Shown here in pieces: positions 12,506 to 63,115 of a stretch of DNA of 64,000 nt. Below the pieces are notes generated by a model, which did no database searches, was not told where the DNA came from, and was given only the letters and a program-made list of their open reading frames with translations. The position numbers were made by a program, and so were the translations under genes. The stretch is from Bacteroidales bacterium. Its GTDB lineage: Bacteria; Bacteroidota; Bacteroidia; Bacteroidales; VadinHA17. Each line of letters opens with the position of its first letter. Within the stretch, counting starts at the first letter, position 1. The stretch covers positions 10,340-74,339 of the forward strand of contig DNOQ01000450.1 in the NCBI GenBank assembly GCA_003501665.1. Direction: 5' to 3'.

Positions 12506-15184
12506 TTATGCCTTAAAACGTAACTTGAATGTTTTTATCTCAAATGGTTTAAGATCAAACTGAATGGTATCCCCCGTAACTTTCATCTTTATACCGGTGT
12601 CCTCTACCAGGTTGGCTTCATTGGCAGATACAATCTTTGCCATGCTCTTTAACGTTACTCCCGGTGTGGCCTCTCCTGATGCCTCGTACAACCTCACTAT
12701 GGTCGTACCTTCTTTCCCCGGTTTCATTGCCGTTATTACTACATTCGGTTTCGAAACCTCAAGCATGCCCCACACCTTCGGCAGCTTTCCTTCATGAATG
12801 CCTGACTTGCGGCAAAGCAAAGGATTGTTATACTCCAGCCCGTGACGATAAACCTCTGCCTTGCGCCAGTCACCTTCGTGCGGAACCAGCGCGTAATCAA
12901 ACTCAAGGTCCGCTCCCATCATGAGTCCCGTGTCTGATGACATACCCCTCTCATATCCCCCTCCGTAACCATACGATGCAATCCTTGCCGAGCGCATAAG
13001 TGATACCATCATCGTCGAATCACTCGTCAGGTTGCCAGGTAGGCCACGGTTAAGAACTGCCAGCCCTCTTGATCCGTCACTGTAATCAGCCCAGTTCTGG
13101 GCAGGAAATTCTATCCCGTTAGGCCGCTCTATCGACCCGAAGGGTATCTCATGTACTATCTTCCCTTCCTTTATTGTGGTCGGGAACATTACCTGGTATC
13201 TTACAAATTTCTCATTGTTCTCTATCCGTGTCTTAATGTCTATCCTCCTTAATCCCTTATATATCCTGATTGTCGTGGATAATGCCCCGTCGGCACAGAA
13301 CCTGTGCGGCGCCAGTTTGTATTCCGAATAAACCGGGCCCTGGTGTACCTTGCCCCTCTCTCCCCGGTACTCCGTGCTGAACTGATCCACATTCTCCTGC
13401 GGTACAGGCTGCTTGCGGTCATTTACAACCTGACCTGCCCTTAAATTACCGTAAAGTTCCCAGAGGTCTCCCCCGTCATACTGATGAACAACCACGTTCC
13501 CGGCCTTATAAAGTACTTCCCATTTATTCGATTTCAATCCGATACTTGTTATTGCTCCTGTTGACAGTTCAAGCTTTATCCTGTAATATTCGTTCTCCAT
13601 AACACCTTCACTGATCTCCTGGCTTGCGTTCATCTGTGATGCCGATGTCAACGGGATGACCCTGTAAACAGCCTCTCCCATTGCAGGTACTCCCCTGGCT
13701 ATGAACACGATCTTCGCATTCTTTATCCCTCCGTCACGGAAACGCTCTGCCTCAACTATCTCCACGGGAATTATCTTATTTGCCTGGTCAGCCACCTGGA
13801 TATCAACAATACCCCCTTTCTTAAAACCAACCATAGTCTCAACAACATCGTCGCGCTTCCATCCCAGAGGATTGAACACTACAACAGGTATTCCTTCACC
13901 GCTTGTATCTACCTGTGATGCCAGGTAATCAAGCCTGTCATCTACCAGCTCCTTTCCCGTGCGTGCCGAAAAATCGTACGTAAGTATGGTGTCTTCATAT
14001 ACTTGGTCTGTCATGACACCAGCCATAAGATCATGAGCCTGGTTGAATAGTGATGGCTCCCAGGCATCCCATACCTTTTCCTCAGCAGTCGGCCGCCCGA
14101 GCCAGTTGCCTATAGCACCCAGCTTCTCCGCTGTGGTGAGTAGCCTCTCAACGTTTCTCAGCTTCTGCTTCAGCTCAATACGGCTGCTGTAAGCTCCCTG
14201 GAAAATAGGATTAAGATCTCCGCTGATGACAGGCCTGTCTGTTCTTTTCTCCATAGTAGCCTCAAAATCTGTTGGCACAGCAAGTCTCAGGTTGAAAGGT
14301 TTGTCACTCAGTTTTTCAAATTTCCCGACCATAACAGGCAGGCTTTCCAGAGGCTCAGAAACGTCACATTCTGCCATACCTATGCGGTCATTTCCTTTAT
14401 ATAAATGGGACAGTGATTCAAATCTCTTTTTACAAAAGGTAATAAACTCGTCAATTTTATCAGGAGATCCCGCAAAATTGCAATACGATTGTGCAAGATA
14501 AATGGCTGATATACGGGTTCCGTCAATTCCCTCCCATAACCATTCAGAGGGTACCTTCGAGTCGGGAGCGCCACGCTGGAACCAGTATGAATTAAAACCT
14601 GCCTTTTTAAGGATCTGCGGCATCTGGGCATTGTGTCCGAATGTGTCAAGGGCCCAGCCGATGGTCACATCAACTCCCAGCTTATCCCTGAAATAACTTT
14701 TGCCATAGAGGAACTGGCGTACCATTGATTCGCCCGAAGGTATATTAGCATCAAACATAGAGTCTATCCCTCCAACTATCTGTAGCCTGCCTTCATTAAC
14801 AAATTGATAAAAAGCAGCTGCCTCTTCAGGATATCTCTCAAGAAACGGTTTTACATAACAGACCTGATCGAGTGTGAATCGATAATCCGGATAGTCATTT
14901 AATAATTTAAGTGCTGTCAGGATATTTGGCAGACCCATATCAAGATATTGCTCCCTTGTCTTGAATACCGCTCCTTCCCAGTGGGTATGAGGTATGATCC
15001 AGAATGTATCTTTTGGAGCAAGCGTTGATAACATGGATGATTCGGGATCTGTACTGCGGCCGCGTGTATAACTGCCAGATGCAAACAATTCTGTAATATT
15101 ACCCACACCTAATGTTCCCGCAGCGCCTAGAAATGCTGCATGTGATACAAACTTTCTTCTGGTAAGAAAACTTTTCTTTGTCAT
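12506..15184 (-). CDS. GH38 alpha-mannosidase with twin-arginine (Tat) signal (copy 1)
   Basis: 892 aa. It carries the Tat leader MTKKSFLTRRKFVSHAAFLGAAG. The GH38 N-terminal metal site is ...IIPHTHWEGAVF... and the nucleophile region is ...GWALDTFGHNAQMPQIL.... The long C-terminal beta-rich domains are typical of GH38. Confidence 0.9.
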   Translation of the reverse strand: MTKKSFLTRRKFVSHAAFLGAAGTLGVGNITELFASGSYTRGRSTDPESSMLSTLAPKDTFWIIPHTHWEGAVFKTREQYLDMGLPNILTALKLLNDYPDYRFTLDQVCYVKPFLERYPEEAAAFYQFVNEGRLQIVGGIDSMFDANIPSGESMVRQFLYGKSYFRDKLGVDVTIGWALDTFGHNAQMPQILKKAGFNSYWFQRGAPDSKVPSEWLWEGIDGTRISAIYLAQSYCNFAGSPDKIDEFITFCKKRFESLSHLYKGNDRIGMAECDVSEPLESLPVMVGKFEKLSDKPFNLRLAVPTDFEATMEKRTDRPVISGDLNPIFQGAYSSRIELKQKLRNVERLLTTAEKLGAIGNWLGRPTAEEKVWDAWEPSLFNQAHDLMAGVMTDQVYEDTILTYDFSARTGKELVDDRLDYLASQVDTSGEGIPVVVFNPLGWKRDDVVETMVGFKKGGIVDIQVADQANKIIPVEIVEAERFRDGGIKNAKIVFIARGVPAMGEAVYRVIPLTSASQMNASQEISEGVMENEYYRIKLELSTGAITSIGLKSNKWEVLYKAGNVVVHQYDGGDLWELYGNLRAGQVVNDRKQPVPQENVDQFSTEYRGERGKVHQGPVYSEYKLAPHRFCADGALSTTIRIYKGLRRIDIKTRIENNEKFVRYQVMFPTTIKEGKIVHEIPFGSIERPNGIEFPAQNWADYSDGSRGLAVLNRGLPGNLTSDSTMMVSLMRSARIASYGYGGGYERGMSSDTGLMMGADLEFDYALVPHEGDWRKAEVYRHGLEYNNPLLCRKSGIHEGKLPKVWGMLEVSKPNVVITAMKPGKEGTTIVRLYEASGEATPGVTLKSMAKIVSANEANLVEDTGIKMKVTGDTIQFDLKPFEIKTFKLRFKA

Positions 15185-15290
15185 AACCTTTAATTTTTTT
15201 TAAGCTAGAATTAGTAATTCAACAACAGGATTATTTAAGGAAAAAATATTGAATAGCGATCAGTTGACAAATATTATTATGAAGTCGAAT

Positions 15291-16365
15291 TTAGTAAATA
15301 ATGCGAATTAAGGGTTGAAAGTTGAATTAGTTATTATTATATAAATATTTGATTGTCAATAAAATACATTAAATATATTTGATCAAAACCTTGATAATCA
15401 ATATCATAAGACAAAAAGCGCTAACTAATGTCGATAAGCATGATTCCCAAGGCAAAAGAATTAGAACTAATTTCTATTTATCTGTATATCTGTGATATAT
15501 ATGACTCAGAGCTTAAATATCTCTGTCAGCGGTTCAGCAATAATAATGAGCCTGAATTCACTGATCAGGAGGTTATGACTATTTATCTTTATGTTATGCA
15601 AGTTGAACAACGGTTAAGGATAAAACAAATACACAGTTTCGCCAACGATTATCTTCGATCCCGGTTCCCTCTGCTCCATTCGTATGAAGCATTCAATATT
15701 AGGGTAAATCGGTTAAGTGAAGCTTTTAAGCATTTGTCTGGCTTATTATTGTCTGATTATTGTCCCTATGACTGTCAACCTGATACCAGCTTGATTGATT
15801 CACTTCCTATTATTACAAGCTCAGGGAAGCGCCCAAATGCGGTGGCAAAAGAATTGACTGATAAAGGTTTTTGCTCAACTAGAAGCATGTATTACCATGG
15901 ATCAAAACTTCATGCTTTAGCATTTTCCAGACATGGACATTTACCCTTTCCTGAAAGCATCATTGTTACTCCTGCCTCTGAAAATGACCTTAATGTGCAA
16001 AAACAATACTGGAGTGGCTTTTCTAACAGAACATTTTATGGTGACAAAATCTATTATGATGAAGATTTTTTCAATAGAATGATTCAGATGAATAACTCAA
16101 AAATGATGATCCCCCAAAAAGCTGTTAAAGGCCAAGCCATAATTATTGCTCAAAGGGATAAAGCAGCTAACAACCTTTATTCAACTGCAGTATCAAAGAT
16201 CCGCCAGCCTATTGAAGCTTTATTCAATTGTCTAATAGAAAAAACGTACATTCAAAGAGCGTCTAAGGTGCGATCTACCAGTGGTCTTATTGTCCATATA
16301 TTTGGAAGAATCGCAGCTGCTTACATATTTTCAATTTTTAACTCTTGATTCGCATTAATAATTAA
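15291..16365 (+). mobile_element. IS982-like insertion sequence (about 1.07 kb) with imperfect terminal inverted repeats
   Basis: A single transposase ORF is flanked by ttagtaaataatgcgaat (15291-15308) on the left. The reverse complement of attcgcattaataattaa (16348-16365) on the right matches it at 15 of 18 positions, with a perfect 10-nt core taatgcgaat. I could not see a target-site duplication, so the exact ends are uncertain. Confidence 0.55.
15428..16348 (+). CDS. DDE transposase, IS982-family-like
   Basis: 306 aa. The layout matches IS982-type transposases as I recall them: ...FTDQEVMTIYLY..., ...FPLLHSYEAFNIRVNRL..., ...LIDSLPI... (D), ...YYHGSKLHAL..., ...FYGDKIYY... (D), ...IRQPIEALFNCL... 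(E), ...ASKVRSTSGLIVHI.... The frame is uninterrupted. Confidence 0.7.
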   Translation: MSISMIPKAKELELISIYLYICDIYDSELKYLCQRFSNNNEPEFTDQEVMTIYLYVMQVEQRLRIKQIHSFANDYLRSRFPLLHSYEAFNIRVNRLSEAFKHLSGLLLSDYCPYDCQPDTSLIDSLPIITSSGKRPNAVAKELTDKGFCSTRSMYYHGSKLHALAFSRHGHLPFPESIIVTPASENDLNVQKQYWSGFSNRTFYGDKIYYDEDFFNRMIQMNNSKMMIPQKAVKGQAIIIAQRDKAANNLYSTAVSKIRQPIEALFNCLIEKTYIQRASKVRSTSGLIVHIFGRIAAAYIFSIFNS

Positions 16366-16855
16366 ATAAAGATAATTAAATTTGATTAAATGCAATTTGA
16401 TTTAACAGGAGATGGATAATACAAATACTTTTCACCATCCAAAAAATGCCCTGTGGTTAAGCGTGAGTGGGCTGGAAAGTATAACCCTGGATGCAGTTAA
16501 GTGTCTTTGCCTACAACATCTCGGTTATTATGCGCCAAAAGAAAGATCGAAGTTCTATCGATTGGTTTATTTCGATGCCTGCCAAAATGAGCAGTAGTGG
16601 GTATCAATCGGAACTTAAATTGGACGAAGAACATTTTTATAAAGCTGACCGGGAGGAGCTTGATATGCTCATCGAAGCAGCATAAAAACAAAGAAAGGAG
16701 GTAAATATGAGAGTCAACACGAAAGTGTATGGGCGATGTTCGTTCCATTAGCTCAAAAAAGGAAAATCTGAGGGCATTTTATTCCCAAAAGACAAAAGAT
16801 AAAAAATATTTTTGACTGGAGTTAAACCAAATTGACCATGATAAAATAGCTTTGG

Positions 16856-16863
16856 TCTTATTG
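16856..16863 (+). promoter_or_regulatory. Candidate Bacteroidota -7 promoter element (TAnnTTTG) upstream of the GH92 gene at 16931
   Basis: tagctttg at 16856-16863 lies 68 nt upstream of the ATG. A second match, tatttttg, is at 16807-16814. This is a motif match only, in AT-rich DNA. Confidence 0.25.
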
Positions 16864-16930
16864 CTGGTATAAAACCCGGCTCAAAAAAATCAATTTGGAT
16901 TTTTAAGGAATAATATAAGAAGGAATATTT

Positions 16931-19591
16931 ATGAAAAAATTAAAAGGCATAACAAAATATGTTGTTTTAATCCTGGGTATAGCGGTTTTGATCTACTGCG
17001 GGATAACATTATCAGGGGAGAATAATATGTTTAAGAAAGGACTAAGCAGTTATATAAATATATTGAGCGGGACAGGCAATGGTCCGGATAGATACTCTCA
17101 CGGGCACACGCATCCCCTTACAACATTGCCCAATGGGTTTACCATGTGGGCACCCATGACCAAGGTTGCCGATAGCTCTAATTTCTACAGATATTCTGAC
17201 ACTACAATTCAGGGATTTACAGCAACCCATATTCCGCACAGATGGATTGGCACCTATGCAAGCTTTGTCTTCATGCCCGTTGCAGGCGATTTGATTACTG
17301 ACCCGGACGGCAGGGCAGTTGCCTTTAACCATAGTAATGAAATTGCAAAAGCTCATTATTACAGTGTTGAAATGGATAACGGAATCAGGACAGAAATAGC
17401 ACCAGCTATGAGGTCAGCTTTTATAAAGATCAGGTTTCCTGAGGGCAATTCACATATTTTGTTTGATGGGCTCACTTACATAAGTATAGACGAAAGTAAA
17501 AAAACTATCACAGGTTATGTGGACCAGAAGGCCCCGAGATTTTATTTCTATGCCGAAATTGACAAAAGTATAATATCTTCAGGGTACCCGGCAAAAAGAT
17601 GTGCCACTTTAGGTTTTTCAACAGGAAGAAATGAAACAGTGAATATGAAGATTGGCACATCATATTTCAGTATCGAACAGGCCAGGGAAAATCTTAACAG
17701 GGAGATTGGCAGGAAGACATTCAACCAGGTAAAGAAGGAAGCTGAAGAGATATGGAATAATGTCCTGGAGAAGATAAGGATTGAAGGGGCTACTGAAGAT
17801 CAGATGATTACATTCTATTCAAATCTTTACCGTACTAAGATATATCCTAATGCATTCTGGGAAGATATTGAAGGGGAGATACAACATAAGAATCCATATG
17901 GTGGCGTATTTCCAGGTAAGCTATATGTTAATAACGGATTCTGGGATACATATAAGAGCACATGGCCACTTTATGCACTTCTGGAGCCAGCCCTGACAGG
18001 AGAGATGCTTGAGGGATTCCTGAATTTCTTCAGGGAATCAGGTTTTGTACCCCAGTGGTCGCATCCTGTCGATTATGATTATACTCCGGGAACGCATTCA
18101 GATGTATTATTTGCAGATGCATATATTAAAGGTATCCGGAATTTCGACTTTGAAACCGCGTACGAGTCGATTTTGTACAATGCCTGCCAGCCCGCTTCAA
18201 GAAGGAAGATAAATGAGCGTTCCGTATTCCTGGGGTATGTTCCGGATGATTTGCATGGGGCATCAGGTTCATGGACACTTGAAGGTGCGATGTGCGATGC
18301 TGCAATTACCCGGATGGCTAAAGCTTTAGGCAAAACAGATGATTATGAGTACTTTAAGAATAAGTCATTAAGCTATTCGAACATTTTTTCATCTTCAGTC
18401 GGCGGATTCTTCAGAGGAAGGAAATCAGACGGGACATGGAGAACCTCAGACTCAGATTTCAAACCCAATGAATGGGGATACGAATTCATGGAAGGGGCTC
18501 CCTGGCAATATCGTTTTTCGCCTGCATTTGATGCGCAGGGACTGGCAAATCTTTTTGGAGGAAGAGCCGCGCTGACTGAAAAACTAGATGAGATGTTCAC
18601 AGCACCCGGAGATTTCTTAACCGGTAGCTACGGTTTTACCATACATGAGATGCAGGAAACATATGATGCAGGTATGGGTCAGTATTCGCATCCCAATGAG
18701 CATAATCATTATACTCCATACCTTTACAGTTATACAGGTATCCCTTCCAGAACTGCTTCCAGGGTCCGCGACATTCTGACCAGGTTATACAGCTCAGGAG
18801 TAGAAAATGGCGGTGGATATATCGGTGATGAAGATAATGGCGGGATGTCAGGATGGTTCATATGGGGTGCCCTGGGAATAATGCCGGCACCCGGAGCTAC
18901 ATCAGAATATATTATTGGTTCACCACTTTTTTCGAAGGCTGCAATACACCTCGGGAATGGGAAAGTATTTGAAATAATAGCCAGGGGTAACAGTGAAACA
19001 AATATATATGTTCAAAATGCAACTCTGAATGGAGAGAATCATTCAAAGAATTACATCAAACATTCAGATATAATTCAGGGCGGAATCCTGATATTGCAGA
19101 TGGGCTCTAATCCATCATCAGAGTGGGGTACAGGTGCTGATGATCTGCCATCTTCAATAACAACCGGAACTGAAATGCCCTGGCCACTGAAAGATATCAC
19201 AAGCTCATCCAAGGTTTCTGACAGCGGGGGATTAAACAAAGAAAATGCATCAGATGATTATGCTCTTTCGATGTGGTCTGTTTCATCTTCAAATGGCTGG
19301 ATCGAGTATCAGCTTTCAGAACCTGAGAGAGTCAGCATGTATACAATAACATCATCGGACGATTCTGCGAAAAATCCAAAGGACTGGATATTAAAAGGAT
19401 CAGCAGATGGGAAGATATGGATTAGTATTGATACCAGGGCAGGGCAGCTCTTTTTATGGAAATTCCATACACGGAGTTTCTCTGTCAGCGACAGCAATAA
19501 ATATCAATATTACAGATTTGAGATAACTGCAAATAATGGCAGCGATAAAACTGCTCTGGGCGAGTTGGAATTATTAAGATCGGCAAAATAA
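16931..19591 (+). CDS. GH92-family alpha-mannosidase with C-terminal F5/8 type C (discoidin/CBM32-like) domain
   Basis: 886 aa with a signal/lipoprotein-like N-terminus. The GH92-like N-domain is ...GTGNGPDRYSHGHTHPLTTLPNGFTMWAPMT.... The catalytic region is ...HPNEHNHYTPYLYSYTG...GGGYIGDEDNGGMSGWFIWGALGIMPAPG...IGSPLF.... The last ~140 aa (...WIEYQLSEPERVSMYTITSSDDSAKNPKDWILKGSADGKIWISID...YYRFEITANNG...ELELL) are discoidin-like. Confidence 0.85.
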   Translation: MKKLKGITKYVVLILGIAVLIYCGITLSGENNMFKKGLSSYINILSGTGNGPDRYSHGHTHPLTTLPNGFTMWAPMTKVADSSNFYRYSDTTIQGFTATHIPHRWIGTYASFVFMPVAGDLITDPDGRAVAFNHSNEIAKAHYYSVEMDNGIRTEIAPAMRSAFIKIRFPEGNSHILFDGLTYISIDESKKTITGYVDQKAPRFYFYAEIDKSIISSGYPAKRCATLGFSTGRNETVNMKIGTSYFSIEQARENLNREIGRKTFNQVKKEAEEIWNNVLEKIRIEGATEDQMITFYSNLYRTKIYPNAFWEDIEGEIQHKNPYGGVFPGKLYVNNGFWDTYKSTWPLYALLEPALTGEMLEGFLNFFRESGFVPQWSHPVDYDYTPGTHSDVLFADAYIKGIRNFDFETAYESILYNACQPASRRKINERSVFLGYVPDDLHGASGSWTLEGAMCDAAITRMAKALGKTDDYEYFKNKSLSYSNIFSSSVGGFFRGRKSDGTWRTSDSDFKPNEWGYEFMEGAPWQYRFSPAFDAQGLANLFGGRAALTEKLDEMFTAPGDFLTGSYGFTIHEMQETYDAGMGQYSHPNEHNHYTPYLYSYTGIPSRTASRVRDILTRLYSSGVENGGGYIGDEDNGGMSGWFIWGALGIMPAPGATSEYIIGSPLFSKAAIHLGNGKVFEIIARGNSETNIYVQNATLNGENHSKNYIKHSDIIQGGILILQMGSNPSSEWGTGADDLPSSITTGTEMPWPLKDITSSSKVSDSGGLNKENASDDYALSMWSVSSSNGWIEYQLSEPERVSMYTITSSDDSAKNPKDWILKGSADGKIWISIDTRAGQLFLWKFHTRSFSVSDSNKYQYYRFEITANNGSDKTALGELELLRSAK

Positions 19592-19694
19592 GGAATGTGC
19601 CCTTTTATTTACACTTATAATGTATCAGATCCTAGTTGCGGACAACCAGCAAAGCACAATTAAGTTTGACTATTTCATTACAATATCCGGAATT

Positions 19695-20440: not shown

Positions 20441-20479
20441 AAGTATTGAAAAGACAGAATTTAATAATTTGTAAATCAG

Positions 20480-34611: not shown

Positions 34612-34692
34612 ATATATACCCTTCCCAATGTCAGCAATTAAGATTTTTTGAACCATAAGAATACAAAATCTATCAGGAAATTATCGGAAATC

Positions 34693-40996: not shown

Positions 40997-41032
40997 AATA
41001 TTATTCTAAGTGATGATTATTAATTTCAATAA

Positions 41033-47417: not shown

Positions 47418-47509
47418 TTAATATTGATTGATAATTTATGCCTTTATAATAATTCAGTTGTAACCGTTATAAAAGTATATCTATTCCCCCACATTCAGGA
47501 TTTTGATTG

Positions 47510-56172: not shown

Positions 56173-56241
56173 TATTTTAACTTATAACTTGTAATTCATT
56201 TTTTTTGATACCGTATCTGGAGTGATAAGTTCTTTAATACC

Positions 56242-58503
56242 TTATTTAATATCTGTCAGTTGATTTAAAACAGACGGGGCGCTTGCCCACTCCTTGGCAG
56301 GACGGTCTCCCATAACGAATTCGAGTGTTCCTCCCTGTACTATTTCAGAATGTTTTATCCATGCTCTGTTAAAAGTCTCGTCGTTCAGGGTAGCTGACTG
56401 TATATATTTGTTTTGTTTTGATACATTTCTGGCTTTGACCATGAATGTCTTTCCATTGCCGAGTTTTATCTTAACCTTTTTAAAGAATGGGCTTCCTATG
56501 GCATACAATCCATTGCCCGGTGTTACAGGATAAAAGCCCATTGCGGAAAAGACATACCATGAACATAATGCACCTCCATCCTCATCACCTGACAGACCAA
56601 GGGGATCGTCATCAAACCACATTTCCATAACTTCCCGGATCCTCCTTTGTGTTTTCCAAGGCTTGCCCGCATAGTTATACAGGTAAGGTACATGGAATGA
56701 TGGCTCATTACCAGCCGGGAACATGCCGTTCAGGCCGGATGCATCAGGGAACTGACCCATGAACTGCCACTTGGCCATCCGGGTTGGTTCATTAAAAAGG
56801 TCATCGAGCCGTCTGGTAAATGACTCAGCTCCTCCCATCATTTCAATAAGCCCCGGGATATCATGCATCACATTAAAATTCCATATATAGGCATTATTCT
56901 CTGCAAAATACATCCTGCTTCCCACACCTCCCGAGGTCTGGGGATTAAAAGGTTCAACCCAGTTGCCGTCAGCCATTTTAGGTGACATAAATCCTGTAGC
57001 CGGATTATATACATTACGGAAATTCTGTGATCTCTTCATGAAGTATTTGTAATCGTCATTTTTACCAAGCGCCTTTGCCAGTTGGGCAAGACACCAGTCG
57101 TCATAGCTATGTTCTAGAGTTACGGCAACAGCCTGTCTTTTTTCAAAACCATCAACCATCGGTTCAGTCTCTTCAGCACCCTCAGGAAGAGCAGGATACC
57201 AGCCATTCTGTATATAAAAGCTATCCAGTCCGCACATAGGTCCCGACCTCCATGGCAACATGGTACCACTCATTGCGTTTTTCTTCAGACCTTCATATCC
57301 CTTCTCAACATCGAAATCAGTACTACCTTTCTGGTATGTATCCCAGATCAGCGCTGCAGCATGGAAGCCAATCATGGCAGGAAAGTCACCGTAAAACTGG
57401 GGGAAAGTGGGCATCCATCCGCTCTGATCATACATATCGACATAAGATTGTACCATATCAACCTGTCTGTCAGGTTCGATCAGGTAAAGAAGAGGATGAT
57501 GACTCCGGAAGGTATCCCATAACCAGTCATCAACATAGAACGGCCTGCCATTGTCTTCGTGAACCTTTTTATCATAACCGCTGAAATAACGTCCGTATTC
57601 CGAGATGTTGACCATCCGTTCCAGACCACGGTAAAATGATGTATAGAAAATTCTCATCTGTCTTTCGGTTCCACCTTTTACAAAGATCTTACCCAGGACT
57701 TCCTTCCATATTCTGTAGCTTTCTTCAGATACCTGTTCAAATGACTTACCGCTCATTTCACGGGTCAGATTATCCTTAGCCTGTTTTTCATCTATATAGG
57801 AAATCCCTATCCTGATTTCGACAGGTTCCGCCGGAGCATTGAATGTCAGGTAGATACCTGTTCTTCTTCCGCTTATCTCATTGTCTCCTGAAGCAAGATC
57901 CTCCCCGGCGAATGTACCGTTCACATCGAAAGGCCTTGAGAGTTCTGCATAAAAATATTGCTTTGTGCCTCTCGACTCTTCCCATCCCTGAAGTGAATTT
58001 TTGTCATTTATTACGAATGATGCCTGACCCCCGGACCTGAAGACAATATTGGCAGCTTTATTTTCCTGGTAATCAAATCTATAGATTACAGCTCTCTCGG
58101 TGGTTGTCCAGTCTGCAATAATATCATGATCTTCAAGAAGCACTTTATGTCTCCAGGGATGTAATTCTTCCATATCATGATCATAGGATGATGCATTTGC
58201 CGCATGGTTGGCTGAAACTGTTCCTGCCGTAGGCATCAGCTCAGTGACATGTCCGTTTCTGTATGCCGGCATGTTGACTGCCAGGCCATATATTTTGTCT
58301 GAAAGGTAACGATCTCCCAGACCGGGCCTGGTAACTGTAAAAACCCGTATCATACTGTGAGGACGGTGAACAGTCGGATTCTTGGTAGTAAGAAGTGGTG
58401 CCACGCCTCCGATATTAGGATCAACATAACTTGTAACATCAGCATTATTACAGGCAGTAACAAATACTGAAATGATCAGCAGAAGATTTCTTATTTTACG
58501 CAT
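56242..58503 (-). CDS. GH92-family alpha-mannosidase (lipoprotein)
   Basis: 753 aa with the lipoprotein box ...ISVFVTACNN. Motifs are ...YVDPNIGGVAPLLTTKNPTVHRPHSMIRV... and ...AGNEPSFHVPYLYNYAGKPWKTQRRIREVM...LSGDEDGGALCSWYVFSAMGFYPVTPG...IGSPFFKKVKIKL.... Confidence 0.85.
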   Translation of the reverse strand: MRKIRNLLLIISVFVTACNNADVTSYVDPNIGGVAPLLTTKNPTVHRPHSMIRVFTVTRPGLGDRYLSDKIYGLAVNMPAYRNGHVTELMPTAGTVSANHAANASSYDHDMEELHPWRHKVLLEDHDIIADWTTTERAVIYRFDYQENKAANIVFRSGGQASFVINDKNSLQGWEESRGTKQYFYAELSRPFDVNGTFAGEDLASGDNEISGRRTGIYLTFNAPAEPVEIRIGISYIDEKQAKDNLTREMSGKSFEQVSEESYRIWKEVLGKIFVKGGTERQMRIFYTSFYRGLERMVNISEYGRYFSGYDKKVHEDNGRPFYVDDWLWDTFRSHHPLLYLIEPDRQVDMVQSYVDMYDQSGWMPTFPQFYGDFPAMIGFHAAALIWDTYQKGSTDFDVEKGYEGLKKNAMSGTMLPWRSGPMCGLDSFYIQNGWYPALPEGAEETEPMVDGFEKRQAVAVTLEHSYDDWCLAQLAKALGKNDDYKYFMKRSQNFRNVYNPATGFMSPKMADGNWVEPFNPQTSGGVGSRMYFAENNAYIWNFNVMHDIPGLIEMMGGAESFTRRLDDLFNEPTRMAKWQFMGQFPDASGLNGMFPAGNEPSFHVPYLYNYAGKPWKTQRRIREVMEMWFDDDPLGLSGDEDGGALCSWYVFSAMGFYPVTPGNGLYAIGSPFFKKVKIKLGNGKTFMVKARNVSKQNKYIQSATLNDETFNRAWIKHSEIVQGGTLEFVMGDRPAKEWASAPSVLNQLTDIK

Positions 58504-58579
58504 AATAACAGGTATTTTAAGTCAGGTACATTCATAATACAATTACAATAAAAAACTAAGGTACACATTTTGGATTATT

Positions 58580-60955
58580 TCAGTTCTGAATTGCTGTTCC
58601 CCAGGTTTTATTTGGCTCCGGACCCAATTCAATTTCAAGTTTTCCCCCCTTGAAAAATTCAGCGACAGGAAAGGTGAAGCTATTCCATGGCTTACCATTT
58701 AACCGGGCACTTTGAATATAGATATCATCTGTATTTTTTCTTTTTGTGGATATCTCAAAAACAGTAGTCTCTTCCTTATTATCCAATGAAGGGAATCTTA
58801 ATACAGTTCTGTCAAATAACGGACTGGTTATTTCAAGATCAGGATCTTTTCCAACACATCCCTGGACATCGAACAGGCCGATAGCCATAAGAACACCCAG
58901 GGCTCCAAGCTGTCCCTGGTCTTCATCACCATTGTAGCCGCTGAAGGGATCTGTTCCCCCGAATGATATCTCCTTTACCTGGCGCACCCAGAATTGTGTC
59001 TTCCAGGGTGCTCCAGCAAAGCTGAAGAGGTGTGCCATCTCGCACGACGGTTGATTTTCATAGTCTACCCAGCCGGTTCCATGCTCACCATGCGGTGTCA
59101 CGAACCTGTGAGGTAAAGCTTTAAAGAAATTTGAATCCAGTTTGCTGACAAATGCATTATCGCCTCCCATTTGAGCTATCAATCCCTTTACATTCTGTGG
59201 TACATAAAAAGAATATGTGGCTGAGTTACCTTCAATAAAACCCAGGGAATTGAATTTGCCCTCGATTGATATAGGTGAGAAGGGTTCCATCCATTCTCCT
59301 GTTTTGTGGCGCGGACGTGCCCAGCCTGCAACCGGGTCAAAGACATTCCTCCAGTTTTCAGAACGCTTCAGAAAGAGGTCTGCATCCTTGTTTTTCCCCA
59401 ATAATTCAGCCATTACAGCAATGCACCAGTCCTGGTAAGCATATTCAAGGGTCATTGATGTTCCCCCGCGGTGGAAGCCATCCCCTCTTTTGGCAATCTC
59501 GACCGGTACGTAGCCCAGATCAACATACCAGTCTATTCCACCACCTGATGGATTTGGTCCGGCTTCATAACCAGCACGGTCACGAATCCCTCCGGGAAAA
59601 GCATTTTTCCTTGCTCCGGCATATGAGAGCTCCGGATCAAAACCTGCTCTGCCGGTTGACATGAGAGCTGCAAGAAGAGGAACAGAATGGTCCCCGACCA
59701 TTACATAGGAATAATTGCCTCCCCATGAGCATCTCGACATCGTACCTGCATTCCGGTAATAATCCAGGAATGTCTCAGCCATCCAGTTACCATATTCAGG
59801 ATAAAGCAGAGACCAGAAAACATTGAGATTCCATTGTGATCCCCAGAGTCCATCCCCATCCAGGAACGGTCTTACCGGTTTACCTTTTTCATCCAAAGGT
59901 ACCTGGCGTATCACCGGTTCCGGACCGGTCCAGTCAGCATATAATCCATCCACGTCACTGCATATTCTTTTGGATGCCGTATGCATCAGGTCGGTATATA
60001 GTTTTACCTGCTGTTCCTTTGTTCCGCCTTCCACATCAACTCTCCCAAGGTAATCATTCCATGAATTAGTAGCTTCACTGACAACTTTATCGAAGTCCCA
60101 GTGAGGAAGTTCGGTGTCAAGATTCAGACGGGCATTATTTGCACTCACATGTGACAGAGCTACTTTAATGAGTATTTTTTCACCTTCCTTCAAATCCTTA
60201 TACGACACATTAACACCACTGCTTTCTCCGCTGACAATGCCATTTTCTGGTCTGACCATGGCGGAAGTTTTTTCAGCACCCTCTATTTTCCACCCTGCAA
60301 AATCATTAAATGGCTTACTGAAATGTGCCACAAAATGAACAATGAAAGGCTTTTTTCGTCTGAAAGTCGGGGCCATTACCGAATAGCCTTCAATTTCATC
60401 ATTACCTGTCTGTCTTGCATAGGAATATGACATTTTTGTGGGTCCCAGATGTGCACCAAGATCGAAAAGGATATTTGCCTCACCCGCTTCAGGGAAAGTA
60501 TACCTGTGCATTCCCACCCTGCAAGTTGCTGTAAGCTCAGCTGTTACCCTGAAGTCTTCAAGAAAGACTTTATGATATCCAGGTTTTACAACTTCTTTAT
60601 CATGACTGAATCGTGATTTATTCGACTCAAAACCAAGGTTCCCCCTGCATGGTCCAGGAACAGGCATGACAGGAATTCCTGCCGTCTGTGCATTATGAAT
60701 ATGGGAAAAGTTCAGAATATATTCATCATTATACATGTAACCCGAATTCCAGAGATCACCATGCCGTGTGTCAGGTGATAAGCAAACCATCCCAAATGGG
60801 ACTGCCGCGGAAATAAAATAATCAAACCGCGATTTATGGCTGTCAATCAGAGGATTAACAAGATCTGCCGGAGATTTTTTCCCTTCATTAACAGATAATT
60901 CAGTGGAACATCCGGTCATAAGCAGTAGCAATAACAGGACCCTCAGGTTATTCAT
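58580..60955 (-). CDS. GH92-family alpha-mannosidase (lipoprotein)
   Basis: 791 aa with the lipoprotein box ...LLLMTGCSTE. Motifs are ...LVNPLIDSHKSRFDYFISAAVPFGMVCLSPDT... and ...YENQPSCEMAHLFSFAGAPWKTQFWVRQV...SGYNGDEDQGQLGALGVLMAIGLF...ITSPLFDRTVLRF.... Confidence 0.9.
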   Translation of the reverse strand: MNNLRVLLLLLLMTGCSTELSVNEGKKSPADLVNPLIDSHKSRFDYFISAAVPFGMVCLSPDTRHGDLWNSGYMYNDEYILNFSHIHNAQTAGIPVMPVPGPCRGNLGFESNKSRFSHDKEVVKPGYHKVFLEDFRVTAELTATCRVGMHRYTFPEAGEANILFDLGAHLGPTKMSYSYARQTGNDEIEGYSVMAPTFRRKKPFIVHFVAHFSKPFNDFAGWKIEGAEKTSAMVRPENGIVSGESSGVNVSYKDLKEGEKILIKVALSHVSANNARLNLDTELPHWDFDKVVSEATNSWNDYLGRVDVEGGTKEQQVKLYTDLMHTASKRICSDVDGLYADWTGPEPVIRQVPLDEKGKPVRPFLDGDGLWGSQWNLNVFWSLLYPEYGNWMAETFLDYYRNAGTMSRCSWGGNYSYVMVGDHSVPLLAALMSTGRAGFDPELSYAGARKNAFPGGIRDRAGYEAGPNPSGGGIDWYVDLGYVPVEIAKRGDGFHRGGTSMTLEYAYQDWCIAVMAELLGKNKDADLFLKRSENWRNVFDPVAGWARPRHKTGEWMEPFSPISIEGKFNSLGFIEGNSATYSFYVPQNVKGLIAQMGGDNAFVSKLDSNFFKALPHRFVTPHGEHGTGWVDYENQPSCEMAHLFSFAGAPWKTQFWVRQVKEISFGGTDPFSGYNGDEDQGQLGALGVLMAIGLFDVQGCVGKDPDLEITSPLFDRTVLRFPSLDNKEETTVFEISTKRKNTDDIYIQSARLNGKPWNSFTFPVAEFFKGGKLEIELGPEPNKTWGTAIQN

Positions 60956-61012
60956 GGCTTTTTATATAAGATGTTTTTAATTTCACGGCCTATACCGGCT
61001 TATATCTAAATT

Positions 61013-63115
61013 TTATTTGTTTGATTTCCATATCTTGCTGAGTTCAATGGCAGCAGGTTTCGTGTTTCCTTCAAAATCAATTATTGATGTATTGACAGGG
61101 CAAGGGTAACAGTCGTGGCCCATCCAGATTATGAATCCTCCGCATTCTGGGAAACGGGACTTATTTGCCTGCAGGGCTATGCTGAGCCCGGCTGTCTGAC
61201 GGCCCTGGCTCCAACTGACATATTCTTCAAGCGATCCAGGAATTCTACCATTATTGTCAAAAATGAAGTCATCCCATTCGATCCACCAGCTTACTTTCCT
61301 CCAGAGAGGATTATCCATATTGGCAGGAAGTGCAGGCAGATCACCACGGTATTTATTAATCATCTCTGCTGACATGGCTCCGGCCACACCGACCTCTGAA
61401 TGCATCAGGGCATCATCAAGATCCCAGAATTTTTTAACTGCATTCATGGTACGGTCCTTTTCAGTGAATGGCAGCTTCCATGGTCCATGGACATCCCAGC
61501 AAACACCCTTTCCAAAGTTATTCAGGCTGCCTCCAATCGTTGGCCCGGAGGGAGATCCTGTAACAAAACGCCGCCAGGGATCTTCCGCCTTGACCATTTG
61601 CTTCATACACCTGATCATCGGATGTTTATCATTCACTGGGGCTATATCGCCATATTCATACAACTCATTCCCGCCGCACCATAACAAAAGAGAGACATGA
61701 TGGCGCAACCGTTTTATATAACTTTCTGATATCTTTGACATTACAAAGATCTCTTCCGGAGTGTCAGGTGGATAATTATCCAGTCCCGAGGAAGAGAGAG
61801 GAAACTCCTGCCATACCATTATTCCCATTTTGTCGCAGGTATTATAGAACCACTCCTTTTCCGGGAATCCGCCTCCCCAGACCCTGAAAATATTAATTCC
61901 CAGGTCTTTGTAGGTTTTTATTAACCTAAGGTAATCGGATTCCTCAAGATCGGCAAAATTCGGACGGACCGGAGTCCAGTTGACTCCCTGAAGAAATACC
62001 GGCTTATCGTTCACACTGCAGATCCATGGATCAGCCTGAGGCAGTGCACCCTGGCATGGAAGCCAGCTTATATTTTTAAATCCGACAATACGTTCTATAA
62101 CCTGGCAGGTATTCCCGTCCCTGTCGTACAAAGTACATACCATCTCGTACAATACCTGGTCACCAAGACCATTAGGCCACCATCTTTTGATTTTCAGATC
62201 ATTCCAGGTTTTTCCCTCACGAAGTATTGTGGATGGGAGGGTCTCATCAATGACAGGTTCACCCGTATCTTTTTTCAGCTGAATCCTGACCTTACCTTTC
62301 AGGGCTTCCGGTGTCATTTCTGCAGAGATCTCCATCTTCCCCAGATCCTTGCTCCTGTTAGCATCAGTGACAACTCTGAAGGTCTCTATCTCCGGATTTT
62401 CCTTAGCACCCACTTCAAGAAAAATTTCATCCCATATACCTGTCTGGACAATCCTTGGAACCCAGTCCCATCCATAATAGAACCTGGGTTTCCAGTCTTT
62501 GATCTTCGAAGTGTATGTTATCTGACCCAGGTAGTCCGGGGGTGATCTGAAGACAATGGCCAGTGTATTGTTATTCTCCTTAAGAAAAGAAGTAATATCA
62601 AATTTGTATGGAACAAAGGTATTGTTGAATTTCCCGGCTTCCCTGCCATTAACAATAATGACCCCATTATGATCAAGCCCCATGCAATTCAGTATTGTTT
62701 TACCTCCCTTTTTCATCCATTTATCAGGGATCCTGGTAATGTATATCCAATGGCGGTTTTCAATCCATTCTATTGAGAAATTATTATTGCCGATATTCCA
62801 ATCCTCAATAATACCTGCATCCTTTAATGATTTTTGCACCGACCCGGGGATCTTTGCCGAAATATTGCTGAACTCAGCTTTGGGTCCTTTTATTTCATTG
62901 AAATTAAAATCCCATTTCCAGCTTTCCGGACCGTAACCCCATAGCTTCCATTCAAGTGAGGAAAGGTTATGCGAGGTTTTCCCGATAGAATTTTCATCAT
63001 CATTCCCGGAATATATAATTCCTGTCTGGCTTGCAGAAATCAATAAAAGTACTGCAACTTTCTTAAACAATTTATTACAATTTATCATAACTGGTATTAG
63101 AATAAGTTTATGCAT
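61013..63115 (-). CDS. GH2-family glycosidase (beta-mannosidase / exo-beta-glucosaminidase-like subgroup)
   Basis: 700 aa with a signal peptide. It has a GH2 N-terminal sugar-binding pattern (...IPGSVQKSLKDAGIIEDWNIGNNN...). Other motifs are ...INIFRVWGGGFPEKEWFYNTCDKMGIMVWQEFPLSSSG... and ...HHVSLLLWCGGNELYEYG.... Confidence 0.8.
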   Translation of the reverse strand: MHKLILIPVMINCNKLFKKVAVLLLISASQTGIIYSGNDDENSIGKTSHNLSSLEWKLWGYGPESWKWDFNFNEIKGPKAEFSNISAKIPGSVQKSLKDAGIIEDWNIGNNNFSIEWIENRHWIYITRIPDKWMKKGGKTILNCMGLDHNGVIIVNGREAGKFNNTFVPYKFDITSFLKENNNTLAIVFRSPPDYLGQITYTSKIKDWKPRFYYGWDWVPRIVQTGIWDEIFLEVGAKENPEIETFRVVTDANRSKDLGKMEISAEMTPEALKGKVRIQLKKDTGEPVIDETLPSTILREGKTWNDLKIKRWWPNGLGDQVLYEMVCTLYDRDGNTCQVIERIVGFKNISWLPCQGALPQADPWICSVNDKPVFLQGVNWTPVRPNFADLEESDYLRLIKTYKDLGINIFRVWGGGFPEKEWFYNTCDKMGIMVWQEFPLSSSGLDNYPPDTPEEIFVMSKISESYIKRLRHHVSLLLWCGGNELYEYGDIAPVNDKHPMIRCMKQMVKAEDPWRRFVTGSPSGPTIGGSLNNFGKGVCWDVHGPWKLPFTEKDRTMNAVKKFWDLDDALMHSEVGVAGAMSAEMINKYRGDLPALPANMDNPLWRKVSWWIEWDDFIFDNNGRIPGSLEEYVSWSQGRQTAGLSIALQANKSRFPECGGFIIWMGHDCYPCPVNTSIIDFEGNTKPAAIELSKIWKSNK

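What the first reader, a model, noticed from the sequence alone, without database searches (positions are those of the whole stretch)
12506..63115. Roughly 50-kb exo-mannosidase island with no SusC/SusD, transporter or regulator
I count 7 GH92-type, 3 canonical GH38, 2 GH38-like and 2 GH2 beta-mannosidase-type genes. There is also a beta-propeller hydrolase candidate, an esterase and at least 4 large secreted unknowns. Most carry Sec, Tat or lipoprotein signals. Bacteroidota glycan loci are normally organised around a susC/susD pair with a hybrid two-component or ECF-sigma/anti-sigma regulator. Nothing resembling a TonB-dependent receptor (about 1000 aa beta-barrel), a SusD, an MFS/ABC transporter or any DNA-binding regulator is present in the 64 kb. 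No endo-acting family I recognise is present either (GH76, GH99, GH18, GH85, GH125). Either uptake and control are encoded elsewhere, or the unassigned proteins provide the missing functions.
Basis: partly seen in the sequence, partly recalled or inferred. Interest (0 to 1): 0.6.

Follow-up and report, generated by a model that had tools for sequence, protein, structure and literature searches.

The report
Mannosidase gene island missing its uptake genes
This is a very large cluster of mannose-releasing enzymes from an uncultured Bacteroidales bacterium. Its "missing" uptake genes sit directly upstream of the same genes in related bacteria, exactly where this assembled contig stops, so it is an enlarged but ordinary sugar-harvesting locus.

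Summary
Pfam confirms 7 GH92, 3 canonical GH38, 2 GH38-like (DUF5054), 2 GH2 beta-mannosidase-type genes and an esterase. No SusC, SusD, transporter or regulator occurs in the window or in the whole 84.6-kb source contig (MAG "Bacteroidales bacterium", DDW27 tags); six-frame searches found no remnants either.

The absence is probably not biological novelty. The contig continues with three more GH38 genes and ends 0.9 kb upstream of the first, on the 5' side of a 19-gene co-directional array. In relatives (60-89% identity) the same genes lie just downstream of SusC-SusD-X391, with ECF sigma/anti-sigma or LacI regulators and an MFS transporter in some loci. One 1.29-Mb contig reads SusC-SusD-X393-GH38x-GH2-GH92-GH92-GH38L-GH92, matching the window's order.

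The large unknowns are enzymes, not transporters. DUF6259 folds like GH129/GH101/GH36. The 707-aa protein folds like GH94/GH63/GH121. The 293-aa protein resembles GH117.

Verdict: an expanded member of a widespread, uncharacterised mannoside PUL family, seen as a split or truncated "CAZyme cluster". That category is already known.

The parts
12506..15184 (-). GH38_a: canonical GH38 alpha-mannosidase with a twin-arginine (Tat) leader
   Evidence: Pfam GH38N, mid, C and C2 domains. N-terminus contains LTRRKFV. Nearest PDB matches are Ams1 and SpGH38. 76% identical to GH38_c.
15289..16367 (+). IS982-family insertion sequence (transposase ORF 15428-16348) in the divergent GH38_a / GH92_a intergenic region
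   Evidence: NCBIfam transpos_IS982, E=9e-23. 38-nt terminal inverted repeats at 15289-15326 and 16330-16367.
16931..19591 (+). GH92_a: GH92 alpha-mannosidase with a C-terminal F5/8 type C (CBM32-like) domain
   Evidence: Pfam.
20480..23041 (-). GH38_b: canonical GH38 without a signal peptide, so probably cytoplasmic
   Evidence: Pfam. It starts 18 bp after GH38_c and has no leader. 72% identical to GH38_c.
23060..25744 (-). GH38_c: canonical GH38 with a Tat leader
   Evidence: Pfam. N-terminus contains LSRRKFI.
25912..28035 (-). MGH1-like protein, 707 aa: beta-sandwich plus (alpha/alpha)6-barrel glycoside hydrolase or phosphorylase of no assigned family; lipoprotein-type leader
   Evidence: Partial Pfam MGH1-like_GH match, E=4e-8. 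AF2 model pLDDT 91. Foldseek matches GH94, GH121, GH63 and GH65. The GH92_b-MGH1like-GH38_c order is conserved in L099.
28043..30841 (-). GH92_b: GH92 with an N-terminal DUF7402 domain
   Evidence: Pfam.
30930..32081 (-). DUF4432 protein. Proposed mutarotase-type helper, from my recollection that DUF4432 belongs to the aldose-epimerase-like superfamily; not tested here.
   Evidence: Pfam DUF4432, E=2e-5, below the gathering score. Orthologues lie in the PUL core of relatives.
32242..34611 (+). GH92_c: GH92 lipoprotein
   Evidence: Pfam.
34648..35781 (+). Alpha/beta-hydrolase esterase (AXE1 / Abhydrolase_7-like) with a Tat leader
   Evidence: Pfam. N-terminus contains NRRSFLK.
35785..38376 (-). 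GH2 beta-mannosidase
   Evidence: Pfam GH2_N2, GH2 and Mannosidase_ig domains.
38626..39951 (-). Mannitol-dehydrogenase-family oxidoreductase (mannitol-1-phosphate 5-dehydrogenase-like), cytoplasmic. The true start is probably internal.
   Evidence: Pfam. NCBIfam match below cut-off. Called as 404 aa.
39809..40996 (-). PfkB-family sugar kinase, cytoplasmic
   Evidence: Pfam.
41033..41707 (-). D-lyxose/D-mannose isomerase (cupin), cytoplasmic
   Evidence: Pfam Lyx_isomer, E=1e-97. PDB 3kmh, E=4e-60. NCBI name given.
41850..45062 (-). GH92_d: GH92 with an N-terminal CBM-like (PL4 domain III-like) module
   Evidence: Pfam.
45126..47417 (-). DUF6259: predicted (beta/alpha)8 alpha-glycosidase related in fold to GH129, GH101 and GH36; unclassified. 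Lipoprotein with CSDSD after the lipidated Cys, so possibly surface-exposed.
   Evidence: Pfam DUF6259. AF2 model pLDDT 92. Foldseek matches 5opq, 8rzk, 5wzr, 2zxq and 4fnr at E 1e-25 to 1e-19 and 10-14% identity. Invariant acidic residues include D453, D484 and E536.
47510..48391 (-). 293-aa secreted five-bladed beta-propeller, GH117/GH43-like
   Evidence: PDB sequence matches 3r4y, 4u6d and 3p2n at E about 2e-9. Weak Pfam GH43 match.
48405..50705 (-). GH92_e
   Evidence: Pfam.
50718..53387 (-). GH38L_a: divergent GH38-like protein with DUF5054
   Evidence: Pfam. 70% identical to GH38L_b.
53506..56172 (-). GH38L_b: divergent GH38-like protein with DUF5054
   Evidence: Pfam.
56242..58503 (-). 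GH92_f
   Evidence: Pfam.
58580..60955 (-). GH92_g
   Evidence: Pfam.
61013..63115 (-). GH2_b: short GH2 of the beta-mannosidase type
   Evidence: Pfam. PDB 5n6u at E=2e-58 and BtMan2A at E=3e-42.
63618..64000 (-). C-terminal end of GH38x_967. It is the third of three further GH38 genes (976, 896 and 967 aa) that continue the array beyond the window. In relatives, orthologues of GH38x follow SusC-SusD-X391.
1398..12431 (.). Probably associated catabolic block: E1alpha, E1beta, class-II aldolase, E2, a cupin (Lyx_isomer-like), a PfkB kinase, two secreted unknowns (420 aa and 731 aa) and an Amidohydro_2 protein
   Evidence: Pfam. Relatives place Amidohydro_2, an isomerase, an aldolase, a kinase and URO-D genes next to GH38x (L015). 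An E2 homologue follows the trio in L073, and Amidohydro_2 sits next to GH38x in L050 and L052.

Best explanation
The island is the enzyme-and-catabolism part of an enlarged member of a widespread Bacteroidales SusC/SusD-type mannoside utilisation locus (PUL) family. It is not a self-sufficient system that works without SusCD.

Proposed working, step by step:
1. A SusC/SusD pair plus a conserved 390-aa lipoprotein (X391) binds and imports mannose-rich oligosaccharides. These genes are encoded outside the assembled contig, most likely directly upstream of the first GH38x gene, where the contig ends. (Inferred.)
2. Enzymes at the cell surface and in the periplasm strip the glycan from its ends. 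They comprise seven mutually divergent GH92, four GH38 subgroups (two members are Tat-exported), two GH2 beta-mannosidases, an esterase, a GH117-like propeller, the GH129/GH101-like DUF6259 and a GH94/GH63-like (alpha/alpha)6 enzyme. (Family assignments are shown; locations and activities are inferred.)
3. Mannose enters the cytoplasm through an MFS transporter. This gene is present in relatives but absent from the window. (Inferred.)
4. The D-lyxose/D-mannose isomerase converts mannose to fructose. The PfkB kinase then phosphorylates it, with a mannitol-1-phosphate-dehydrogenase-like enzyme alongside. (Inferred from family membership.)

The locus grew in two ways. GH38 genes were duplicated in place (paralogue sets at 70-76% identity). 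GH92 and other enzyme genes of distinct lineages were added (26-51% identity).
For: - Family content.
- Taxon: NCBI labels the proteins 'MAG TPA: Bacteroidales bacterium', locus tags DDW27.
- Contig edge: the contig continues with three more co-directional GH38 genes and ends 912 bp upstream of the first.
- L102, a 1.29-Mb contig: SusC-SusD-X393-GH38x(79%)-GH2_b(71%)-GH92_g(86%)-GH92_f-GH38L_b(79%)-GH92. This is the window's own gene order.
- L094: SusC-SusD-X392-GH38x-GH38x-GH92_f(86%)-GH38L_b(82%)-MFS-LyxIso.
- L101: SusC-SusD-X392-GH38x(81%)-LyxIso(89%)-PfkB-Mdh-DUF4432-UROD-GH38-GH38.
- L024: X391 directly precedes a GH38x array.
- Pfam confirms SusC, SusD, ECF sigma, FecR, LacI and MFS in those loci.
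- Frequency: X391 lies directly upstream of the first GH38x in 20 of 50 loci that have enough upstream sequence.
- Sub-blocks are conserved elsewhere (L098, L099). L100 links the MGH1-like protein to ECF sigma-FecR-SusC-SusD and an MFS.
- The unknowns model as GH folds.
- Paralogy pattern.
- Literature: split or truncated PULs shown as susCD-less 'CAZyme clusters' are an established category (PMC5753385).
Against: - No SusC, SusD, regulator or MFS occurs anywhere in 84.6 kb, and there are no pseudogene traces.
- The 912 bp upstream of GH38x_976 is non-coding, whereas X391 usually lies 100-300 bp from GH38x. One relative, L086, does have a gap of about 1 kb.
- About half of the GH38x orthologues with visible upstream sequence are not next to SusCD.
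- Array-type relatives L015 and L016 show other genes upstream.
- A terminator-like hairpin and a 500-bp spacer separate GH38x_967 from GH2_b, so the window genes may be a transcription unit of their own.
- No enzyme activity, localisation or regulation was measured.
Confidence: 0.55

Rival explanations
1. It is a true orphan CAZyme cluster. The island is physically separate from any susC/susD pair and works in trans with a PUL elsewhere in the genome that supplies import and sensing. Bacteroides salyersiae does this for yeast mannan.
For: - No SusCD or regulator in 84.6 kb.
- Several related arrays show no SusCD in view: L015, L016, L095, L096.
- There is a precedent of one PUL plus an orphan cluster lacking SusC/D for mannan (bioRxiv 10.1101/2022.07.15.500217).
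- PULDB describes detached clusters for complex substrates.
- A terminator-like site lies upstream of GH2_b.
Against: - The contig stops exactly on the 5' side of the array, where L094, L101, L102 and L024 carry SusC-SusD-X391.
- L095 and L096 also break at that point, so their lack of SusCD is uninformative.
Confidence: 0.33
2. It is a SusCD-independent strategy. Surface or secreted exo-mannosidases release free mannose outside the cell, and a general monosaccharide transporter takes it up.
For: - The content is almost all exo-acting, with no recognised endo-mannanase.
- DUF6259 carries an acidic stretch after the lipidated Cys that could act as a surface-export signal. This is inference.
- The isomerase/kinase route acts on the free monosaccharide.
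Against: - Tat leaders on GH38_a, GH38_c and the esterase point to a periplasmic location, which needs outer-membrane import of oligosaccharide.
- Orthologous genes in relatives are embedded in SusCD loci.
- No Pfam match to a T9SS C-terminal sorting domain appeared in the scans.
Confidence: 0.08
3. The unassigned proteins are themselves novel transporters or regulators that replace SusC/D.
For: Only that four proteins lacked an annotation.
Against: - DUF6259 models as a (beta/alpha)8 GH fold and the 707-aa protein as an (alpha/alpha)6 GH fold.
- The 293-aa protein is GH117-like.
- DUF4432 has only a weak, sub-threshold Pfam match and no transporter or regulator domain.
- No unknown has more than one hydrophobic (TM-like) segment, and none is of beta-barrel size.
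- None has a DNA-binding domain.
Confidence: 0.02
4. The organism is not a Bacteroidota, so SusC/D should not be expected.
For: None beyond the absence itself.
Against: - The NCBI label is Bacteroidales.
- The closest homologues are in Bacteroidales, Mariniphaga, Mangrovibacterium and Prolixibacteraceae MAGs.
- Relatives carry SusC/D.
Confidence: 0.02

Closest known systems
Bacteroides thetaiotaomicron yeast alpha-mannan PULs (MAN-PUL1/2/3) and the high-mannose N-glycan PUL (Cuskin et al. 2015, PMC4978465, listed; details from my own knowledge)
   Same: Both are Bacteroidota loci rich in GH92 and GH38 exo-alpha-mannosidases. Both follow the logic of periplasmic exo-trimming after SusC/D import. 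Relatives of the window locus use ECF sigma/anti-sigma with an STN-domain SusC, as the N-glycan PUL does.
   Different: The window has no GH76, GH99, GH125 or GH18, and no SusC/D or HTCS on the contig. It has a different GH38 repertoire (GH38x, GH38L/DUF5054). It carries a mannose isomerase / PfkB / mannitol-dehydrogenase catabolic trio and URO-D-like genes. It is far larger: at least 17 mannosidase-type genes on one contig.
PULDB 'CAZyme clusters' and the B. salyersiae orphan mannan CAZyme cluster (PMC5753385; bioRxiv 10.1101/2022.07.15.500217)
   Same: It is a run of adjacent CAZyme genes without susCD in a Bacteroidota. The explanation is either a split or incomplete assembly, or cooperation in trans with a PUL.
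   Different: Here comparative synteny points to a specific missing block, SusC-SusD-X391, at a specific contig end. The size and the GH38 expansion are unusual.
The uncharacterised metagenomic PUL family SusC-SusD-X391-GH38x-(GH92/GH38L/GH2)-LyxIso-PfkB-Mdh-DUF4432-UROD (loci L094, L101, L102, L030, L034 and others)
   Same: The proteins are orthologous at 60-89% identity and the gene order is locally identical.
   Different: The window version lacks SusC, SusD, X391, the MFS and the regulators. It has extra paralogues and accessory enzymes: DUF6259, the GH117-like protein, GH92_a-e, the MGH1-like protein and the esterase.
GH129, GH101 and GH36 retaining alpha-glycosidases (ZgGH129 5opq, NagBb 5wzr, EngBF 2zxq, AgaA 4fnr), compared with DUF6259
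   Same: Same three-part architecture of N-terminal beta-sandwich, (beta/alpha)8 barrel and C-terminal beta-sandwich. Foldseek probability 1.0, TM 0.53-0.69.
   Different: Only 10-14% identity. No sequence-level match to those families. Substrate unknown.

Membership tests
Canonical Bacteroidota PUL | Adjacent susC (TonB-dependent transporter) and susD gene pair | tested here: not met
   No Pfam Plug, TonB_dep_Rec or SusD domain in any ORF. tblastn with orthologous-locus SusC and SusD found nothing below E=0.6 in the window, L001 or L003. The contig ends on the 5' side, so absence from the genome is untested.
Canonical Bacteroidota PUL | Co-localised CAZymes with export signals aimed at one glycan class | tested here: met
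   19 glycosidase or esterase genes, nearly all with Sec, Tat or lipoprotein leaders.
Canonical Bacteroidota PUL | Linked sensor or regulator (HTCS, ECF sigma/anti-sigma, SusR, LacI or GntR) | tested here: not met
   None in 84.6 kb. ECF sigma/FecR or LacI regulators are present in some related loci.
PULDB-type 'CAZyme cluster' | [quoted passage not shown] | tested here: met
   Gene map. Definition quoted from PMC5753385.
SusC-SusD-X391-GH38x mannoside PUL family (defined here from metagenomic loci) | Orthologous GH38x, GH92_f/g, GH38L, LyxIso-PfkB-Mdh, DUF4432 and UROD411 in conserved local order | tested here: met
   60-89% identity and shared order with L094, L101, L102, L030 and L098.
SusC-SusD-X391-GH38x mannoside PUL family (defined here from metagenomic loci) | SusC-SusD-X391 immediately upstream of the first GH38x | tested here: inconclusive
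   Not present in the 912 bp available upstream, after which the contig ends.
GH92 / GH38 / GH2 (CAZy families, via Pfam models) | Match to the family catalytic-domain HMM above the gathering score | tested here: met
   GH92 E-values 1e-121 to 1e-165. Canonical GH38 has all four domains. GH38L matches GH38N at 37-42 bits against a cut-off of 25. GH2_N2 with the TIM barrel or Mannosidase_ig.
GH117 (for the 293-aa protein) | Full-length five-bladed propeller with the GH117 catalytic residues | tested here: inconclusive
   Local matches (residues 133-279) to GH117 structures at E about 2e-9. The protein is about 100 aa shorter than GH117 enzymes. Catalytic residues were not examined.
GH129 / GH101 / GH36 (for DUF6259) | Sequence-level family membership | tested here: not met
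   Pfam hits only DUF6259. phmmer against PDB found nothing. Similarity is at fold level only, at 10-14% identity.
GH63 / MGH1 (for the 707-aa protein) | Full-length match to the GH63 / MGH1 catalytic domain | tested here: inconclusive
   The Pfam MGH1-like_GH match covers only profile positions 184-283 of 356. The fold is closest to GH94, GH121 and GH63 at 11-13% identity.

The most novel reading that the evidence does not exclude
The locus, and the metagenomic PUL family it belongs to, targets a mannose-rich glycan that is not yeast alpha-mannan or a standard N-glycan. It would do so with at least two glycosidase families not yet classified: DUF6259, which is GH129/GH101-like, and the 707-aa (alpha/alpha)6 enzyme. 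It would also use URO-D-like and Amidohydro_2 enzymes that process an unusual sugar modification. In this organism the enzyme arsenal has truly been uncoupled from SusC/D and is run in trans as a regulon of more than 80 kb.
Probability: 0.2. Interest if true: 0.55.

Novelty: new member of a known kind. Interest (0 to 1): 0.28.

Why it matters
For genome-scan purposes the lesson is cautionary. A "PUL without SusC/D" on a metagenomic contig should first be checked against the contig ends and against syntenic relatives.

Biologically, the locus documents an abundant, uncharacterised Bacteroidales mannoside PUL family. More than 2,600 GH38x relatives were found, many of them on contigs from JGI, ENA and Logan metagenome assemblies. 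The family has several unusual features:
- a distinctive GH38 subgroup placed next to SusCD;
- a mannose isomerase / PfkB kinase route in place of the route I would expect (hexokinase plus phosphomannose isomerase);
- tightly linked URO-D-like genes;
- at least two candidate new glycoside hydrolase families.

Each of these is a concrete target for enzymology.

Tried and rejected
The protein search did not return its 100% self-hit.
2. Using DUF6259 as a synteny anchor in GTDB genomes. Homologues (58-76% identity) lie in unrelated contexts, so they served only for taxonomy.
3. Xanthan as the substrate, a lead from the GH38/GH92 xanthan papers. Rejected because no PL8, GH88, GH5, GH9 or GH3 is present.
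4. Hidden small regulators in the gaps at 16348-16931, 19591-20480 and 63115-63617. The six ORFs there have no Pfam match.
5. Cis-regulatory RNAs. Rfam found nothing at gathering thresholds.
6. PDB sequence searches for DUF6259, the MGH1-like protein, DUF4432, GH38L and X391. No significant hits.
7. NCBIfam for the unknowns. No hits.
8. A literature search for DUF6259. Zero papers.
9. The sigma-70 promoter scan is uninformative for Bacteroidota and matched at chance level.


Full report
**1. Checking the observation**

- Seven GH92 genes.
- Three canonical four-domain GH38 genes.
- Two divergent GH38-like genes that also match DUF5054.
- Two GH2 genes. One has the Mannosidase_ig domain. The best solved relatives of the other are beta-mannosidases 5n6u and BtMan2A.
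- An AXE1 / Abhydrolase_7-type esterase.

The "beta-propeller hydrolase candidate" is the 293-aa protein at 47510-48391. It matches GH117 structures at E about 2e-9.

I read the N-termini by eye. GH38_a, GH38_c and the esterase have twin-arginine leaders. Most other proteins have lipoprotein or Sec leaders. GH38_b has no leader at all.

- a cytoplasmic trio at 38626-41707: a mannitol-dehydrogenase-family enzyme, a PfkB kinase and a D-lyxose/D-mannose isomerase (Pfam E=1e-97; PDB 3kmh E=4e-60);
- an intact IS982-type element at 15289-16367 with 38-nt inverted repeats.

**2. Is the absence real?**

No ORF of at least 150 aa carries a TonB-receptor, SusD, MFS, ABC or DNA-binding regulator domain. 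The same is true of the ORFs in the intergenic gaps. No protein has more than two hydrophobic (TM-like) segments.

I took SusC, SusD, X391, ECF sigma, FecR, LacI and MFS sequences from orthologous loci and ran tblastn against the window and both contig flanks. Nothing scored better than E=0.19, so there are no pseudogene remnants. Rfam found no regulatory RNA.

**3. Source and surroundings**

Exact-match look-ups place the window on one contig. It appears as ENA ERZ27315072 k141_397164 (84,587 bp) and as an 84,347-bp NCBI contig. NCBI labels its proteins "MAG TPA: Bacteroidales bacterium" (DDW27_16245 = HBE42718.1; DDW27_16280 = HBE42725.1). The same sequence was recovered independently in Logan SRR6486099 and in a JGI metagenome. 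So the island is not a mis-assembly, and the Bacteroidota assumption is right.

Right of the window the array continues with three more co-directional GH38 genes of 967, 896 and 976 aa. The contig then ends 912 bp upstream of the first of them.

Left of the window lie a beta-helix protein, unknowns, a short-chain dehydrogenase, Rpe, DeoC, a 411-aa URO-D-family protein and a protein truncated by the contig end.

In all, 19 genes run co-directionally from the contig's 5' end down to window position 35785.

**4. The decisive comparison**

I scanned metagenome contigs with GH38x_976 and obtained 80 loci at 60-78% identity. I annotated them by BLAST against the window proteins and by Pfam. A recurrent architecture emerged:

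[ECF sigma-FecR, or LacI] - SusC (1,050-1,170 aa; some with an STN domain) - SusD (about 540 aa) - X391 (a conserved lipoprotein with no Pfam or PDB match) - GH38x - GH92_f/g, GH38L, GH2_b - (MFS) - LyxIso - PfkB - Mdh - DUF4432 - UROD411 - GH38.

The most informative loci, with identities to window proteins, are:
- **L102** (1.29-Mb contig): SusC-SusD-X393-GH38x(79%)-GH2_b(71%)-GH92_g(86%)-GH92_f-GH38L_b(79%)-GH92. This is the window's own order.
- **L094** (NCBI GCA_022865305.1): SusC-SusD-X392-GH38x-GH38x-GH92_f(86%)-GH38L_b(82%)-MFS_1-LyxIso.
- **L101** (156-kb contig): SusC-SusD-X392-GH38x(81%)-LyxIso(89%)-PfkB(76%)-Mdh(66%)-DUF4432(74%)-UROD(83%)-GH38-GH38.
- **L024**: X391 directly precedes a multi-GH38x array like ours.

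Of 50 loci with at least 1.3 kb of upstream sequence, 20 have X391 (two of them X391-LacI) directly before the first GH38x. Of 39 loci with at least 3 kb upstream, 19 have SusD within three genes.

Other sub-blocks of the island are conserved too:
- GH38L-GH92_e(88%)-DUF6259(85%)-GH92_d(84%)-LyxIso-PfkB in L098;
- GH92_b(81%)-MGH1like(73%)-GH38_c(77%) in L099;
- in L100, an MGH1-like homologue sits in a small ECF sigma-FecR-SusC-SusD-...-UROD-UROD-MFS locus.

The two other array-type relatives retrieved by look-up, L095 and L096, also break at or within a few hundred bases of the start of the GH38x array. This may reflect a repeat that hinders assembly at that point.

**5. The unknowns are enzymes**

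- **DUF6259.** Alignment A1 has 59 sequences. The AF2 model has pLDDT 92. It has a beta-sandwich / (beta/alpha)8 / beta-sandwich architecture. The best Foldseek matches are GH129 (5opq, 8rzk, 5wzr), the Flavonifractor galactosaminidase, GH101 EngBF and GH36, at E 1e-25 to 1e-19 but only 10-14% identity. Invariant D453, D484 and E536 lie at barrel-strand ends. They are candidate catalytic residues; this is inference.
- **The 707-aa protein.** Alignment A2 gave a model with pLDDT 91. It has a beta-sandwich plus (alpha/alpha)6 barrel and matches GH94 phosphorylases, GH121, GH63 YgjK and GH65.
- **DUF4432.** The Pfam match is weak and below the gathering score. From memory, the family is aldose-epimerase-like. 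A mutarotase role would make sense where inverting GH92 and retaining GH38 enzymes release opposite anomers. This is inference.

None of these looks like a transporter or a regulator.

**6. How the island grew**

- The canonical GH38 triplet is 71-76% identical among its members.
- GH38L_a and GH38L_b are 70% identical.
- GH38x_976 and GH38x_967 are 76% identical.
- The seven GH92 are only 26-51% identical to one another.

GH38 content therefore grew by local duplication. The GH92 genes belong to distinct lineages and presumably have distinct linkage specificities. That last point is inferred by analogy with the characterised B. thetaiotaomicron GH92 set, from my own knowledge.

**7. Mechanism I commit to**

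1. SusC/SusD/X391, encoded off-contig, import mannose-rich oligosaccharides.
2. Surface and periplasmic exo-glycosidases and an esterase trim them to mannose.
3. An MFS transporter moves mannose into the cytoplasm. It is absent from the window but present in L094, L037, L073, L078 and L100.
4. The isomerase converts mannose to fructose, the PfkB kinase phosphorylates it, and the mannitol-1-phosphate-dehydrogenase-like enzyme acts alongside.
5. The leaderless GH38_b may cleave small imported mannosides.

Only the family or fold assignments and the synteny are shown. Locations, activities, substrate and regulation are inferred.

Caveats:
- the 912 bp upstream of GH38x_976 is non-coding;
- roughly half of GH38x orthologues are not next to SusCD;
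- a terminator-like hairpin (63583-63562, minus strand) and a 500-bp spacer precede GH2_b.

A true orphan cluster working in trans therefore remains a serious rival.

**8. Comparison with what is known**

[quoted passage not shown] B. salyersiae degrades yeast mannan with one PUL plus an orphan CAZyme cluster lacking SusC/D (bioRxiv 10.1101/2022.07.15.500217).

Compared with the B. thetaiotaomicron mannan and high-mannose N-glycan PULs (PMC4978465), this locus differs in three ways. It lacks GH76, GH99, GH125 and GH18. It has different GH38 subgroups. It carries its own isomerase/kinase route.

It is therefore a new and unusually large member of a known kind. It is not a new kind of system.

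**9. Verdict**

Interest is low to moderate (0.28). What remains of value is the uncharacterised PUL family, its candidate new GH families, and the linked URO-D and Amidohydro_2 genes.

Noticed in passing
L003:169-1404 (contig, about 11 kb left of the window); relatives L021, L025, L030, L046, L054, L055, L062, L065, L069, L071, L076, L077, L100, L101: URO-D-family genes (a 411-aa type and a 338-aa type) are tightly linked to GH38x in many loci. L100 has two of them next to an MGH1-like GH and an MFS, behind SusC/SusD. A uroporphyrinogen-decarboxylase / methyltransferase-like fold in a mannoside PUL has no obvious role. It may remove a sugar modification such as an O-methyl or carboxyl group.
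   Followed up: partly
window 1398-7190: E1alpha, E1beta, class-II aldolase and E2, followed by a 181-aa cupin (weak Lyx_isomer match) and a PfkB kinase. This looks like an acetoin/2-oxoacid-dehydrogenase cluster with an aldolase inserted. Relatives place an isomerase, an aldolase, an FGGY kinase and Amidohydro_2 next to GH38x (L015), and an E2 homologue after the trio (L073). It is probably a second catabolic branch of the same regulon.
   Followed up: partly
window 7313-8575, 8796-10991 and 3-1010(-); L003:4887-7157: Four secreted or lipoprotein ORFs (420 aa, 731 aa, at least 336 aa, and 756 aa) have no Pfam hit. NCBIfam, run only on the 420-aa and 731-aa ORFs, also gave nothing. They flank the island and may be further unclassified glycan-active proteins.
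   Followed up: no
window 45126-48391: Two adjacent genes resemble anhydro-galactosidase families: DUF6259 (best fold match GH129 3,6-anhydro-D-galactosidase) and the 293-aa protein (GH117 3,6-anhydro-L-galactosidase-like). The pairing is not conserved. L098 lacks the 293-aa gene, and the GTDB homologues of DUF6259 have no such neighbour.
   Followed up: partly
window 15289-16367: An intact IS982-family element with 38-nt inverted repeats sits in the divergent promoter region between GH38_a and GH92_a.
   Followed up: partly
window 63360-63460 and 63562-63583: GC-rich palindromes (for example 63420-63449, a 14-nt stem) and a terminator-like hairpin lie in the 500-bp spacer between GH38x_967 and GH2_b. 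In L102 the same two genes are only 32 bp apart.
   Followed up: partly
window 20480-23041: GH38_b is 72% identical to its Tat-exported neighbour GH38_c. It starts 18 bp after that gene and lacks any signal peptide. It is a cytoplasmic paralogue produced by tandem duplication.
   Followed up: partly
window versus ENA contig k141_397164: Coordinates mapped from the two ends differ by 222 bp, so there is an indel somewhere between window positions 12431 and 61013. The ORF at window 3-1010(-) is intact, whereas in L003 it is split into 255 aa and 119 aa. The NCBI and ENA versions of the contig differ by 240 bp in length.
   Followed up: no
L018, L030, L034, L094, L101, L102 and others (not in the window): X391 is a conserved lipoprotein of about 390 aa that always follows SusD in this PUL family. 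It has no Pfam or PDB sequence match. It is a candidate surface glycan-binding protein or a novel surface enzyme.
   Followed up: partly
window 19591-20480: An 889-bp gap contains only short ORFs of 90 aa or less with no Pfam match. It may be a decayed gene remnant.
   Followed up: partly
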